Shown here: in pieces, positions 2,963-31,600 of the stretch | Position numbering within the stretch: position 1 is the first letter of the stretch | How the letters are laid out: each line of letters begins with the position of its first letter | Origin: the human T2T-CHM13v2.0 reference genome, Homo sapiens | DNA: 64,000 nucleotides | Assembly (NCBI RefSeq): GCF_009914755.1 | Contig: NC_060930.1 | Direction: 5' to 3' (one strand) | Position numbers and translations under genes: made by a program | Notes under the pieces: generated by a model | Seen by the model: the letters and a program-made list of their open reading frames with translations, nothing else | What the model was told of the DNA's origin: nothing | The model's database searches: none

Positions 2963-3508
2963 GACATTGTCCCTTGAGGGCAAATGCTACTGTTACACCT
3001 CCAGAGAGACCAGGTGCCTTGTCCGAGGCTCTCCAGCTCTGGGGCTAGAACAAGGAAGGTATCCTGACCTCATTCTCTTGAAGTTTTCATTCTGAAACAG
3101 GTAAGATACTCAGCAGGCCCTGAAACTGTTCTGATTGAAAGCACAAGGCCACCTTGAACTCAGGACCTCAGGTCTCAAGCCCAGAACCTTCGTATACTGG
3201 CTCCCATCGTGCTCCTATCTCTCTTGCTTGTGGGAACTGCTCTTTATGGGGACACTATAACTCGGTGATTTGGAATCAGCCAAGTCTGGGTTGTTTGTGT
3301 CTTGATTTTGCCACTTACTGAATGGTGGAACTTTGGGCAAGTTCTCGCACTTCTCCAAGACTTGGTCTCCTTAACGGTAGAATGGGACAATAACCCCTTT
3401 CTCACAGGAAAACACACCAAGCCCCCAGCCCAGTGCATGGCTCACTACAGTCCTCAGTGACTGGGCCACTTAGTAGTGCAAACCCTGGATTTCGGGTGCC
3501 CACCTCAC

Positions 3509-5923: not shown

Positions 5924-5965
5924 CTGCCGTCCCGATCCCAGTCATACACCTCCACCTTGATGGTC
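5924..5965 (-). CDS. CPNE5: CPNE5 exon 11 (42 nt, phase 2-2): TIKVEVYDWDRDG(S)
   Basis: Acceptor TTTGCAG, donor CAG|GTAAGC; YDWD calcium-ligand loop of C2B. Confidence 0.96.
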
Positions 5966-6596
5966 CTGCAAAACAAAGGCCTTTGCTGGGATGGGCCCAA
6001 CCCCACACCCACGTGGCTGAGGATGGGGCCCTCTTCATGTTCCCGGACCAGATAGGGAGGCCAGGACTCCCTCTGGGCCCCAGGGCCCTGGGTGGGGAGG
6101 CAGCGGCTTGAGAGACAAGGATCTCTCTTGAGGCCTTTTAGGAAAGGCCTTAGGAAAAGGGCAGCCAGGGCTGTGTAGGGACTGCCCAGAATTTCAAGGA
6201 GAATGTGGGAAAAACAGCTGCAGACTTCAGTTCACCCCACCTTCTTCTTGGCCACTGCAGAAGGGGCATAAGCTCAGCATGGAGCCGCACTGTGGATTTA
6301 CCAGGGGTGGAGGAGCGGGGAGGTGGGAGTGTGGTGCTCTCTGGATCTCAGGCCCCGGCAGGGTGGAGGGGAGGGAAGAAGACTGCTTGTTGAGGGTCTG
6401 AGGGCTTTGGGTGTGGGAGCCAGCCCTGCACGTCAGGGAGGAGCCCAGGGCCCTGGCTCGGGGATGGCCCGCTGAGCTTTTCCATCCCCACGACTGGCTC
6501 CTGAGTGAGGGTGTAATTATCTTCATATTTTAGCCTGGCTGCTTTAATTAGTTTGTTTTGACTCCTATGCATGCGGATGGGCTTTGAGAGCCCATT

Positions 6597-8696: not shown

Positions 8697-9140
<444 letters not shown>

Positions 9141-12991: not shown

Positions 12992-13439
12992 TCCCCTCAC
13001 CCACTCTAGAAGCCCCAGGAGCCAGCTAGATGTGTAACAGAGGCTTGTTTGACTGCAGCGCTAAGACCGTCTTTGTTCCCAGTCTTATTTTGTGCACTTA
13101 TTTATCTGTCTAAAATACATGTGCACATCTGTGCTGCCTGTGGTCAGACCACAGTCTCCCTAAAGATGGGAAGGCGACCCTGTTCGTTTAAATCCGCATA
13201 GCTAGAGGCGCCACGCTGGGACACAGGAGGCACTCAGTGACCACCTGTGGAACAGACTGTGGCTCTTCTGTCCCAGCCAAGAGGCAGGAAAAAGAACAAG
13301 CTCATGTCTCAAACTGGCAGCCTGGGGGTTTCTTCGGAGTGTAACAGGGGTGCCTGGAGGCCATTCATCTGCTGATCATCCCCTCAACATGCCTTTTCAG
13401 GCTCCCAGCTGCCCCAAGGTGTCTGGTTTTGTTTGTTTG

Positions 13440-13785
13440 TTTTCTTTTTTGTCTTTAAGGTTTTCTTTTTTTTTTCTTGAGACAGCATCCCAAGCTGGAG
13501 TGCAGTGGTGCAATCATAGCTCATTGCAGCCTTGAACTCCTGGGCTCACGTGATCCTTTTGCCTCAGCCACCTGAGTAGCTGGGTCCACAGATGTGCGCC
13601 ACTATACCCAGATAAGTTTTTTTAATGTTTTAATTTTTTTAAATTTAGTTTTAAATTTTTAAATTTTTTTTTGTAAAGATGGGGGTCTCACTATGTTACG
13701 CGGGCTGGTCTTGAACTCCTGGATTCAAGCCCATCTCAGCCTCCCAAAGTGTTGGGATTACAGGCGTGAGCCACCACGCCTGACC
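13440..13785 (-). mobile_element. AluJ with expanded AT-rich linker
   Basis: Antisense Alu consensus. Confidence 0.9.
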
Positions 13786-14476
13786 CCAGGTGTCTGTTTC
13801 GACACCCCAGTGCTCCTGTCGGAGTGGCCCAGAGGCCCAGCTTTCTTAGCTGTCCAGAGAGCCCTGCCCATGAGCCCCCTACCAGCTCACCCACCTGAGC
13901 TGCAGCAATCACCAGGAGACAGGGATGGGTTCTCCTGACTCAACAGAAACCAACACAGTCTCACAGCTCCCATTTTGGGTGGTGGCCCCACTCGCTCTCT
14001 CGGCGCTTGCTACAATGTATAATTACATGTTTCCTTGTGTGATTATTGGATTAATGTCTGCCTCCCCTACTGGCATGTAAACACCACTAGGTTGGGTGAA
14101 GGGTGAAGACTGCACCCTGCTGATTTCCCAGCATCTAGCACAGTGCCTGGTACATGACAGGGGTTCCCTAAACATTTGTGGATGAGATGCTGAATTTGGT
14201 ATTTTAGGCACAACAGAGCCTCGTTGTGTAGGTTGTGTCGTGTGAGCGTCAATGCAGTCCTGTAGAGTAGGCAGACATTTTAATACCCATTTTACAGATA
14301 AGGAAACTCAGGCTCAGACAGGTCAAGGATTGCCCAGGTTGACAGTGCTTTTTGGTCACAGAGTCAGAATTAGCAACCAGGTATCTGGTATCTACACTCA
14401 ACAATCTACACTCAAATGATGATGAAGATGATAGCCAACATGTAATAAGAGTAGGCATATGTTAAAACAAAAAATC

Positions 14477-14707
14477 TAGCCTGGGCAACATGGTGAAACC
14501 CCATGTCCACCAAAAACACAAAAAATTAGCCGGGCGTGGTGGTGCATGGTTGTGGTACCAGCTACTCGGGAGGCTGAGGTGGGAGGATTGCTTGAGCCCA
14601 GGAGGTGGAAGCTGCAGTAAGCTGAAATCGGTGAGATGAGAAAATGTCCCTTCACTCCAGCCTGGGTGAAAGAGTGAAATCCCATCTCAATTAAAAAAAA
14701 AAAAAAA
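14477..14707 (+). mobile_element. 5'-truncated AluJ-like element carrying a 22-nt non-Alu insert
   Basis: Starts at AGCCTGGGCAACATGG; consensus CGCCACTG replaced by GTGAGATGAGAAAATGTCCCTT. Confidence 0.92.
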
Positions 14708-15574
14708 TCTGCCAGGCATGGTGGTTCACACCTGTAATCCCAGCACTTTGGGAGGCAGAGATGGGTGCATTGCTTGAGCCCAGGAGTTTGATACCAGCTT
14801 GGACAACACAGCGAAACCAGTCTCTACAAAAATAAAAAATTAGCTGGGCGTGGTGGTAGGTGCCTGTAGTCCCAACTATATTCAGGAGGTAGAGGTGGAA
14901 GGATCGCTTGAGCCTGGGAGGTCCAGGCTGCAGTGAGCTGTGATGGCGCCACTGTCACTGCATTCCAGCCTGGGTGACTGAGCGAGACCCTGTCTAAAAA
15001 AAGAGAAAGAAATCCCAGAAGCTCTTTGCACTCTACCCCGTTTGTTTATGGCAACTAGGCTGGCAGGATGTATCCCTAGGATCTTGACTCCCCAGTCTGT
15101 TGGCCAGGAATTGGGACCAGCTGCCTCTGCCTGCATCAACACCCTGCTTCCCTGCTGCCATCTGCTCCTCCACTGGGAACAATGAAAAGACAAGCTGCTG
15201 AACTCCAGGCCTGGGCACCCGGGACACCCATCTGGGTTTCCCTGGAATCCTGGGCACTTCCCATCCCCCTAACCTTGGGAGTTTCCCACCAGTGGGGATG
15301 CCAGACAGAGGGGAAAGAGGTGGGGCGGGTGGGGAGAAGAGGATCTGTGAGGCTGTGAAGAGGCAGAGACATTGCCGGGTGCAGCAGGGAAAGAGTGGAG
15401 GGGCTCACCAAGCCCCAGCCTGTGCAGGGCACCCCCTACTGCACAACTCCAGAAGGCCTCATTTCTACTGATGGGACTGACCACGTCAATATGAATGGGG
15501 CCACCCTCACTTGTGCTTGGGGAGGGCCCAGAAGCAGAAGGAAAAAAGAAGGGACATTTTCTCATCTCACCGAT
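14627..15574. repeat. Perfect 27-bp inverted repeat (arms 14627-14653 and 15548-15574, spacer 894 bp); one arm is the exon 10 5' splice site
   Basis: 14627-14653 ATCGGTGAGATGAGAAAATGTCCCTTC is the exact reverse complement of 15548-15574 GAAGGGACATTTTCTCATCTCACCGAT. Confidence 0.97.
14710..15010 (+). mobile_element. AluJ
   Basis: Full-length dimer directly after the previous Alu tail. Confidence 0.9.
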
Positions 15575-15675
15575 CGTAGTCGCCGTTGCAGAGGGCTCTC
15601 ACGGGAATGGAGAAAGTTTGCCAGACTGGATTTAGGGTGTTCTTCATGACCTCGGTCTTGTGGCAAATGGTGAAC
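15571..15675 (-). CDS. CPNE5: CPNE5 exon 10 (105 nt, phase 2-2): [34 protein letters not shown](R)
   Basis: Acceptor TTCACCAG, donor TCG|GTGAGA; C2B core [13 protein letters not shown]. Confidence 0.97.
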
Positions 15676-16134
15676 CTGGTGAAGAAGAAGAGAGGGAAAG
15701 GCTGTCAGGCCCAAACCCAAGGGAGGCGAATGCAGGTCAACAGAGGAGTCAGCTGGTTCACATCTCTGGTTCCTGGACGACGGAAATGATGGCTTCAAAA
15801 GGTGATGAGCTGCCCATCACTGACAGCAGCCAAGCTGATACTAGGCGGCCATTTGCTGGAGATCCTGCAGAAAGGGTTCCTGTACCAGGTGAGGACCTGG
15901 AGGTGGGGACAAGTCCCAGGGTGTCAGGAGCCCTGGGTTCTAGCCTCTGCTCTGGGGCCACCTCACCGTGTGACCTTGAGCAAGCTCTCCCCTCTCTGGG
16001 CCTCCAGCTCCTCACCTGTAAACGCAGGCAGTTACCCTCTATCAAAGATTCTCCATCTGCAATTCACAGAAGGATGAGCAGATGAACCTCAGGGGTCTGT
16101 GAACCCCGGAAACACTAGGAGAAATTAGATGTAT

Positions 16135-16520
16135 GGGTCATTTGTGCCTGCTGCTCCCCTGGCCTGGAATATTCTCTCCTCCGCTTCCATCTTTGTGACT
16201 CACTCCTCACTACCTTCAAACGCCATCTCCACGAAACCTCCCCTGACTACCGTATCTAAAATTGACAACTGCCTGGTCTCCTGCCTCTCACATCCCCTAG
16301 ACTCCTCCCAGACTTTTTTTTTTCTATTTCATTTGTCACCATTTGACATTTTGATATAGTCTATTTTTTCCTTATTTATTCTGCTCATGGTCTGTCACTA
16401 AAATGTAAGTTTCATAAAAGCAAGGATTTTTGTCTCTTTTGATCACTGGCACATCCCTAGTGCCTAGAACAGTGCCTGGCACTTCGTAGGTATTCAATAA
16501 TTCTTTTTAAATGAATCAAT
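16135..16520 (+). mobile_element. L2 3' region
   Basis: CCTGGAATATTCT ... CCTAGAACAGTGCCTGGCAC ... TCAATAA. Confidence 0.75.

Positions 16521-30933: not shown

Positions 30934-31600
<667 letters not shown>

What the first reader, a model, noticed from the sequence alone, without database searches (positions are those of the whole stretch)
14627..15574. Built-in antisense to the exon 10 splice donor: perfect 27-bp inverted copy templated into a downstream Alu
Seen: 14627-14653 (ATCGGTGAGATGAGAAAATGTCCCTTC) is the exact reverse complement of 15548-15574, which covers the last 4 nt of CPNE5 exon 10 and intron positions +1 to +23. It sits in an AluJ-like right arm where the consensus GAGATCG-CGCCACTG-CACTCC has its middle 8 nt replaced by 22 non-Alu nt; the shared ATCG is a microhomology between the Alu and the exon end, the signature of a template-switch or templated repair event. 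Established: the U1 snRNA footprint (about -3 to +6) is wholly inside the paired segment, and RNA duplexes over 5' splice sites can repress splicing. Inference: in the minus-strand pre-mRNA the two arms, 894 nt apart, can form a 27-bp duplex that masks the donor (TCG|GTGAGA, non-consensus at -3/-2 and +6). Exon 10 is 105 nt and phase 2-2, so skipping keeps the frame and deletes the [13 protein letters not shown] core of C2B. This could be an elongation-rate- or ADAR-sensitive, lineage-specific splicing switch. 27/27 identity inside an old diverged Alu means the event is young or the pairing is maintained. I know of no description of it but cannot search the literature.
Basis: partly seen in the sequence, partly recalled or inferred. 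Interest (0 to 1): 0.88.

Follow-up and report, generated by a model that had tools for sequence, protein, structure and literature searches.

The report
Inverted splice-donor copy inside an Alu
A short stretch copied backwards from the end of CPNE5 exon 10 sits inside a nearby intronic Alu; it is most likely a harmless DNA-copying scar, although on paper the RNA could fold over that splice site.

Summary
Window 14627-14653 is the perfect reverse complement of 15548-15574, which is the last 4 nt of CPNE5 exon 10 plus intron +1 to +23. The 27-mer occurs only at these two places in the genome. Flanks match at chance level, 15 of 60. Other Alu copies show that 22 non-Alu nt replaced 8 Alu nt, with a shared ATCG at one junction and C at the other. 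This is the signature of a templated inverted insertion, by template switch or MMBIR-like repair. The 0.9 kb template distance is beyond the 100-200 bp that published scans search.

The RNA duplex is strong (-48.4 kcal/mol). It is in the predicted optimum until the downstream inverted Alus are transcribed, then loses to Alu-Alu pairing in a nested model.

Nothing supports a splicing switch. All 15 of 15 annotated transcripts spanning exon 10 include it, and searches found no report. Perfect identity only bounds the age at about 0.03-0.07 substitutions per site. Orthologues, other haplotypes and RNA-seq could not be consulted.

Verdict: a real, undescribed but ordinary mutational scar with untested regulatory potential.

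The parts
14627..14653 (.). Left arm: a 27-nt perfect inverted copy of the exon 10 donor region, lying inside an Alu. In the minus-strand pre-mRNA it reads as the antisense of the donor.
   Evidence: (I4). One of only two genomic occurrences of the 27-mer.
14631..14652 (.). The 22 nt that are not Alu sequence, replacing 8 nt of the Alu. The junctions share ATCG (14627-14630) and C (14653) with both the Alu and the template.
   Evidence: Alignment with 8 other Alu copies. Spacer survey: 32 nt here against 18 nt in 109 of 133 anchor pairs. Gap in the repeat mask at 14631-14646.
15548..15574 (-). Right arm and template: the last 4 nt of CPNE5 exon 10 plus intron 10 positions +1 to +23, including the 5' splice site.
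15571..15675 (-). CPNE5 exon 10 of NM_020939.2: 105 nt, phase 2-2, encoding the central part of a C2 domain.
14476..14710 (+). Host Alu (Alu-A). It lacks its 5' part, is in plus orientation and so antisense in the pre-mRNA, and is relatively old.
   Evidence: Flanks have a median identity of 76.6% to 109 other copies, rank 19 of 110 most diverged. The boundaries are approximate.
14711..15017 (+). Second Alu (Alu-B), lying inside the 894-nt loop between the two arms.
   Evidence: (mask 14647-15017).
13419..13788 (-). Inverted Alus downstream in the pre-mRNA. They are the predicted partners of Alu-B and compete topologically with the donor duplex.
   Evidence: I1-I3, I5; mask.

Best explanation
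A single mutational event in the primate germline replaced 8 nt of an already old intronic Alu with 22 nt copied from the opposite strand, 0.9 kb away. The event was a template switch at a stalled fork, or microhomology-primed fold-back synthesis during break repair. It used a 4-nt (ATCG) and a 1-nt (C) microhomology. The template happened to be the exon 10/intron 10 boundary of CPNE5.

The result is a 27-bp perfect inverted repeat. In the pre-mRNA the Alu arm is a built-in complement of the 5' splice site. It emerges about 0.9 kb after the donor, when U1 binding and exon definition have probably already occurred. About 0.9 kb later still, an Alu-Alu duplex that crosses it becomes available.

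I judge the element to be a neutral or nearly neutral scar. At most it slows removal of the 9.6-kb intron 10 rather than switching exon 10 on and off.

Shown: the copy, its uniqueness, its sharp ends, the replaced Alu segment, the junction identities, the predicted energies, and constitutive annotation of the exon.

Inferred: the direction and mechanism of copying, the kinetic order in vivo, and neutrality.
For: - The copy is exact, has sharp ends and is unique in the genome.
- The direction of copying is clear. The segment is foreign to Alus: 109 of 133 anchor pairs have the canonical 18-nt spacer, and 6 of 8 aligned copies have the 10-nt segment. The other arm is a coding exon end plus a functional donor.
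- The junction identities match the published signature of inverted templated insertions with microhomology, including 'insertion with replacement' (PMC8421209, passages seen), and the four-point template-switch model (PMC5453318, passages).
- Such events are common germline variants. There are 872-1,121 unmasked TSM loci per individual (bioRxiv 10.1101/2021.11.26.470150, section 5) and about 100 MMB-TI of 25 bp or more per person.
- A 27-nt template taken at random within +-2 kb covers a given 9-nt donor footprint with probability about 0.005. A few such coincidences genome-wide therefore need no selection.
- All 15 of 15 transcripts spanning exon 10 include it.
- The donor is mid-rank in U1 pairing.
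- The duplex is displaced in the nested model once the inverted Alus are present.
- Conserved complementary regions are reported to be depleted at active splice sites (PMC8052449, Fig. 4 legend seen).
Against: - The 894-nt template distance is larger than anything the published short-range scans look for (100-200 bp). Membership in those classes therefore rests on the signature, not on distance.
- The ancestral state is inferred from other Alu copies, not from orthologues or other haplotypes, which I could not reach.
- The duplex is very stable (-48.4 kcal/mol). It gives a net gain of about 22 kcal/mol over 15 shuffled-arm controls. It is the predicted optimum for 8 of 13 co-transcriptional truncation points, a stretch of about 0.9 kb of transcription.
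- A pseudoknotted coexistence with the Alu-Alu duplex is not modelled.
- The 9.6-kb intron leaves minutes for the duplex to invade the donor, so an effect on splicing kinetics cannot be excluded.
- RefSeq annotation is a blunt test for low-level or tissue-specific skipping.
- My base-rate survey was small: 200 kb, with 0 comparable events.
Confidence: 0.72

Rival explanations
1. The inverted copy is a working, lineage-specific splicing regulator. The 27-bp duplex masks the exon 10 donor, so that exon 10 is skipped (in frame, removing the centre of C2B) or intron 10 is retained, in a way that depends on elongation rate or on ADAR or helicases.
For: - The duplex covers -4..+23 and is far more stable than U1 pairing.
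- It is in the MFE and centroid of the 1.1-kb fold and in 8 of 13 truncation folds.
- The exon is 105 nt and phase 2-2.
- The long 9.6-kb intron gives time for invasion.
- Long-range pairings are known to affect splicing, and introns with them respond to Pol II slowdown (PMC8052449 abstract).
Against: - All 15 of 15 spanning transcripts include exon 10 and no skipping isoform is annotated.
- Searches found no literature on CPNE5 exon 10 skipping, RNA editing or intron retention.
- The donor is not weak relative to its neighbours.
- The arm is transcribed after the donor and after intron 9 is complete.
- The duplex competes with a crossing Alu-Alu duplex.
- Perfect identity does not require selection.
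Confidence: 0.1
2. The insert is an assembly artefact, or a private or rare variant of the one haplotype assembled here, and not a fixed feature of the human CPNE5 gene.
For: Only one assembly could be read. Published work shows that many templated insertions are polymorphic, and that short-read pipelines miss them (abstract).
Against: The structure is a clean replacement with microhomology at both junctions, inside otherwise ordinary sequence. That is what a biological event looks like, not a consensus-polishing error. I have no evidence on the variant's frequency in either direction. A rare variant would still have the origin described in the best explanation.
Confidence: 0.08
3. Copying went the other way: the first 23 nt of the intron were overwritten from the Alu. 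Alternatively, both arms derive from a third source.
For: An inverted repeat by itself does not give direction.
Against: - The segment is absent from the other Alu copies examined.
- There is no third copy in the genome with up to 3 mismatches.
- The donor-side arm includes coding bases and a working GT donor used by all 15 transcripts.
Confidence: 0.02

Closest known systems
Short-range template-switch mutations (four-point model; Genome Res 2017, PMC5453318; bioRxiv 10.1101/2021.11.26.470150; PNAS 2022, PMC8794818 on creation of RNA hairpins)
   Same: A reverse-complement copy of nearby sequence replaces a short stretch in one step and creates a perfect inverted repeat that can pair in RNA. 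The copied fragment contains all four bases and is not low-complexity.
   Different: Here the template is 894 nt away. The published scans search 100-200 bp of context, and the hairpin study allows at most 8 bp between source and target. The 22-27 nt copied is well above the reported mean of 11.56 bp. One arm lies in a masked repeat, which those scans filter out.
MMBIR-type templated insertions (MMB-TI; Nucleic Acids Res 2021, PMC8421209)
   Same: An insertion in inverted orientation to a nearby template, flanked by microhomologies, of the type that replaces resident sequence. [quoted passage not shown]
   Different: MMBSearch looks for templates within 100 bp. The mechanism (break-induced replication or fork template switch against polymerase-theta fold-back) cannot be told from the sequence.
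Long-range complementary regions in human pre-mRNAs (PCCRs, Nat Commun 2021, PMC8052449; PHRIC, PeerJ 2023, PMC10691357)
   Same: Two regions of one pre-mRNA, hundreds of nt apart, with a predicted duplex far below -15 kcal/mol. One region overlaps a splice site.
   Different: Those catalogues require conservation and/or RIC-seq support and exclude repeats. Here one arm is in a primate-specific Alu, with no conservation and no experimental support. CCRs are reported to be depleted at active splice sites, whereas this donor is constitutively used.
Local stem-loops over 5' splice sites, such as the MAPT exon 10 hairpin (only titles and abstracts seen in the listing; details recalled)
   Same: Base pairing that includes the U1 binding site of an exon's donor.
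   Different: Those are short local hairpins with loops of a few nt, conserved and validated by mutation. Here the stem is a 27-bp perfect one closing an 894-nt loop, and it is untested.
Inverted Alu pairs (IRAlus) in introns (recalled)
   Same: A primate-specific source of intronic double-stranded RNA. One such pair, 14711-14974 with 13489-13784, lies in the same intron.
   Different: The complementarity of interest is not between Alu sequences. It lies between a non-Alu insert and a unique exon-intron junction.

Membership tests
Template-switch mutation (four-point model) | The changed stretch is explained by a reverse-complement copy of nearby sequence. | tested here: met
   27 of 27 nt complementary, with sharp ends and flanks matching at 15 of 60.
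Template-switch mutation (four-point model) | The copied fragment is at least 8-10 nt, contains all four bases and is not low-complexity. | tested here: met
   22 nt of new sequence, 27 with the microhomologies. It passed my composition filter. Criteria were read.
Template-switch mutation (four-point model) | The template lies within the short range used to define the class (100-200 bp of context). | tested here: not met
   894 nt lie between the arms. Search ranges are given.
Template-switch mutation (four-point model) | The ancestral allele without the copy is documented in an outgroup or another haplotype. | not testable with these tools
   No primate or other human assemblies are on hand. 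Other Alu copies served as a proxy.
MMBIR templated insertion (MMB-TI) | The insertion is inverted relative to a nearby template and has microhomology at both junctions. | tested here: met
   ATCG at one junction and C at the other, judged against other Alu copies. The definition was read. The 1-nt junction is minimal.
MMBIR templated insertion (MMB-TI) | The template is very near (100 bp in the published tool). | tested here: not met
   894 nt, against 100 bp.
Functional long-range RNA structure in pre-mRNA (PCCR-like) | A stable predicted duplex between two regions of the same transcript. | tested here: met
   -48.4 kcal/mol. The duplex is in the MFE and centroid of the 1.1-kb fold.
Functional long-range RNA structure in pre-mRNA (PCCR-like) | The duplex holds up in wider sequence context. 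| tested here: inconclusive
   The duplex is present for 8 of 13 truncation points and lost for 5 of 13, once the inverted Alus are included. The model cannot represent the crossing arrangement.
Functional long-range RNA structure in pre-mRNA (PCCR-like) | Evolutionary conservation or compensatory substitutions. | not testable with these tools
   No orthologues are available. One arm is inside an Alu, so conservation beyond primates is impossible.
Functional long-range RNA structure in pre-mRNA (PCCR-like) | An effect on splicing of the affected exon or intron. | tested here: not met
   This is an annotation-level test only. All 15 of 15 spanning transcripts include exon 10. RNA-seq was not available.

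The most novel reading that the evidence does not exclude
A single template-switch mutation, fixed in apes or humans, installed a cis-antisense to a constitutive 5' splice site. In tissues with slow elongation or low helicase or ADAR activity, it measurably delays intron 10 removal or causes in-frame loss of the centre of the C2B domain of CPNE5. That would be a one-step birth of a lineage-specific, structure-based splicing brake.
Probability: 0.07. Interest if true: 0.6.

Novelty: new member of a known kind. Interest (0 to 1): 0.3.

Why it matters
This is a clean, datable example of a templated inverted insertion whose template lies about 0.9 kb away. That is outside the 100-200 bp range that current template-switch and MMBIR scanners search. 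They also mask repeats, so events of this kind are probably under-counted.

It also shows how one mutation can place a perfect 27-bp antisense against an active splice donor. If such cases prove to be tolerated without effect, they give natural evidence that co-transcriptional U1 binding and exon definition protect donors from later-transcribed complements. If they have effects, they are a source of lineage-specific splicing variation.

For CPNE5 itself nothing yet indicates any consequence.

Tried and rejected
**Chance or repeat-family origin: rejected.** The 27-mer is unique to the two arms genome-wide. The flanks match at chance level. The other two perfect inverted pairs of 20 nt or more in the window are Alu-Alu pairs.

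**Known RNA family: none.** Rfam gathering search of 13000-16500 gave 0 matches.

**Base-rate survey: too small to be useful.** I planned 200 random 10-kb genic pieces of chr6, but only the first 20 (200 kb) could be fetched.
- Eight rows had an unmasked arm. Four were Alu fragments missing from the mask list (L010, L018). Four belonged to longer diverged inverted repeats (L012, L016; the L016 flanks match at 41 of 60).
- There were therefore 0 sharply bounded unique copies in 200 kb. That bounds the rate only at under about 15 per Mb.

**Equilibrium folding as a verdict on function: rejected as decisive in either direction.** The 1.1-kb fold favours the duplex and the 2.3-kb fold excludes it, but the conflict is a pseudoknot that the model cannot score.

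**A mutational hot spot at this Alu position: weak.** One further Alu (31248-31274, minus strand) has a local near-palindrome at the same site. That makes 2 of roughly 115 Alu copies, which I did not test statistically.

**Literature.** Supplementary tables of PMC8052449, PMC5453318 and PMC8421209 are closed. They could in principle list this locus, though their stated filters (repeats excluded, 100-200 bp range) make that unlikely. PMC5774710 (listed) was not opened.

Full report
**Observation**

The raw sequence and the repeat finder (pair I4) agree. Window 14627-14653 is the exact reverse complement of 15548-15574: 27 of 27 nt, with 894 nt between the arms.

By the RefSeq table, 15571-15675 is exon 10 of the select transcript NM_020939.2, on the minus strand. 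It is 105 nt and phase 2-2. The right arm is therefore the last 4 exon bases plus intron +1 to +23, and the -3..+6 footprint lies inside it.

Exon 10 translates to [34 protein letters not shown]. This matches Pfam C2 at profile positions 36-60 of 104 (E 2.4e-4, 21.7 bits against a 22-bit cut-off for this fragment). Exon 9 matches positions 8-30 (E 0.027). That this is the second C2 domain of the copine follows from its position at about residue 211 of 594 and from recalled copine architecture.

**Is it more than chance?**

- A perfect 27-nt inverted match within 3 kb is expected about 1e-8 times in 64 kb.
- Allowing 3 mismatches, the 27-mer occurs at exactly these two places in the 3.1-Gb assembly, and the reversed-pattern control gives none.
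- Identity ends abruptly. The 30 nt on either side match at 15 of 60 positions, which is the random level.
- In the whole window only three perfect inverted pairs of 20 nt or more lie within 3 kb of each other, and the other two are Alu-Alu pairs.

**What the left arm sits in**

The left arm interrupts a plus-oriented Alu that lacks its 5' part (about 14476-14710).

- BLAST hits of other Alu copies stop at the insert and resume after it.
- In the alignment with 8 other window copies, 6 have a 10-nt segment where the target has 24 nt. Setting aside the first G and last C, which both share, 8 Alu nt were replaced by 22 foreign nt, a net gain of 14.
- Over 264 kb (the window plus 20 random genic pieces), 109 of 133 anchor pairs have an 18-nt spacer at this site and the target has 32. 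Some of the 133 are not Alus.
- The RefSeq repeat mask is broken at 14631-14646.
- At one junction the letters ATCG belong both to the Alu and to the exon end. At the other junction a single C is shared.

The host Alu is old relative to its peers. Its 111 nt of flanks have a median identity of 76.6% (best 83.8%) to 109 other copies, which ranks it 19th most diverged of 110. I did not assign a subfamily.

**Origin**

The features seen are:
- a sharply bounded inverted copy;
- replacement of resident bases;
- microhomology at both junctions;
- a template on the same chromosome close by.

Together these are the published signature of template-switch mutations (PMC5453318, passages) and of MMBIR-type templated insertions, including the 'insertion with replacement' class (PMC8421209, passages).

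The direction of copying is from donor to Alu. The segment is foreign to Alus, there is no third copy in the genome, and the other arm is a coding exon end with a working donor.

Two concrete routes fit:
- A nascent strand ending in ATCG re-anneals on the strand of like polarity 0.9 kb ahead, after helicase-polymerase uncoupling.
- After a break in the Alu, the long resected 3' tail of the right-hand end folds back on itself, copies the donor region, and rejoins the left-hand end through the ATCG.

The sequence cannot tell these apart (inference).

What is unusual is the distance. The published scans look within 100-200 bp or 100 bp, report a mean copied length of 11.56 bp, and filter masked repeats. 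An event like this one is invisible to them.

**Age**

Zero differences in 27 pairs bounds the per-lineage neutral divergence since the event. At P = 0.05 the bound is about 0.033-0.068 substitutions per site, and at P = 0.5 about 0.008-0.016. The range depends on how the constrained donor bases and the CpG are counted.

The copy is therefore clearly younger than its host Alu. From recalled primate divergences, the bound still allows an origin tens of millions of years ago. Perfect identity needs neither extreme youth nor maintained pairing. No orthologue or second human haplotype could be consulted.

**RNA level**

In the minus-strand pre-mRNA the donor is transcribed first and the antisense arm about 0.9 kb later.

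- The two arms alone give -48.4 kcal/mol. The 5' end of U1 on this donor gives -8.3 by the same crude measure.
- In a 1,141-nt fold the duplex is in both the minimum-energy and the centroid structure.
- Shuffling the arm 15 times raises the optimum from -427.7 to a mean of -406.0 kcal/mol. The donor is then predicted to pair weakly (6 of 9 nt) with 15062-15068.
- The 894-nt loop contains a second Alu (14711-15017), whose inverted partners lie downstream at 13419-13788.
- In a 2,341-nt fold that Alu-Alu duplex is chosen. The donor duplex has 0 of 27 pairs and pair probability 0, and forcing it costs +57 kcal/mol.
- Stepping the 3' end, the duplex is optimal for ends from 14620 to 13750 (8 of 13 points). 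It is lost from 13700 onward (5 of 13 points).

The two helices cross, which the nested model forbids but a real RNA with long linkers need not. Folding therefore cannot settle the matter. It shows that the duplex is thermodynamically plausible for roughly 0.9 kb of transcription and contested afterwards.

**Function**

The evidence available speaks against a switch, but weakly.

- Of 27 CPNE5 rows in the annotation, 15 span the exon. All 15 include it and splice it to 5924-5965, across a 9,605-nt intron.
- The donor departs from the textbook consensus at -3, -2 and +6 (recalled consensus). It still ranks 5th strongest of the 11 CPNE5 donors in the window by U1 pairing.
- Conserved complementary regions are reported to be depleted at active splice sites and enriched at inactive ones (PMC8052449, Fig. 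4 legend). An active donor inside a duplex is thus the unusual state, consistent either with the duplex not forming in vivo or with a cost.
- Intron 9 is complete and exon 10 can be defined before the antisense arm exists. Any effect would therefore more likely be delayed intron 10 removal than exon skipping (inference).

Searches:
- 'CPNE5' with 'exon skipping' found 2 papers. One was opened and is unrelated. The other was seen only in the listing.
- 'CPNE5' with 'RNA editing' found 0.
- 'CPNE5' with 'intron retention' found 0.
- The four-term search listed one paper with a single CPNE5 mention, on tau pathology, which was not opened.
- CPNE5 has 0 mentions in the main texts of the two long-range-structure catalogues, both of which exclude repeats.

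**Prior for coincidence**

A 27-nt template drawn at random within +-2 kb covers a given 9-nt donor footprint with probability about 0.005. Templated inverted insertions are common germline variants: 872-1,121 unmasked loci per individual and about 100 of 25 bp or more per person. A handful of such events covering splice sites somewhere in the genome therefore needs no selection.

It found no comparable event. The unmasked hits in L012 and L016 are parts of longer diverged inverted repeats.

**Verdict**

The regulatory reading is possible but unsupported.

I file this as a new, apparently undescribed instance of a known kind of mutation. It has an unusually distant template and an eye-catching target. 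Interest is modest until comparative and RNA data are examined.

Noticed in passing
window 31248-31274 (minus strand; Alu at about 31195-31440): Another Alu has, at the same position of its right arm, a foreign 27-nt spacer. It contains an 11-nt near-palindrome (31255-31265 with 31268-31278, 91% complementary, 2 nt apart), which looks like a short-range template-switch event. The same Alu also lacks part of its right arm.
   Followed up: partly
window 14711-14974 with 13489-13784: An inverted Alu pair within CPNE5 intron 10 is predicted to form a long interrupted duplex with helices of 8-17 bp. It is a likely double-stranded RNA and editing substrate, and it crosses the donor duplex.
   Followed up: partly
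window 14621-14645 (minus strand): Read in the pre-mRNA sense, the inserted copy supplies a pyrimidine-rich run followed by an AG inside the antisense Alu, which resembles a 3' splice site. No exon is annotated there.
   Followed up: no
window 6302-6384: Two RefSeq mRNAs (NM_001376888.1, NM_001376890.1) start at 6384. Intron 10 therefore contains an alternative first exon for short CPNE5 isoforms that lack both C2 domains.
   Followed up: no
window 14939-14962: The neighbouring Alu-B has a 24-nt spacer at the same site, caused by a short tandem duplication.
   Followed up: no
window 15050-15083 with 15548-15584: When the Alu arm is shuffled or out-competed, the donor region is predicted to pair weakly with a unique intronic stretch about 500 nt downstream. 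I did not test whether this exceeds chance.
   Followed up: no
L012 7244-7367 with 8818-8935 (EDN1 region); L016 2230-2279 with 3400-3449 (RNF182 region): Two inverted repeats whose arms are not in the repeat mask. Both extend beyond their perfect cores with mismatches and indels, so they are older inverted duplications or unmasked elements, unlike the sharply bounded CPNE5 copy.
   Followed up: partly
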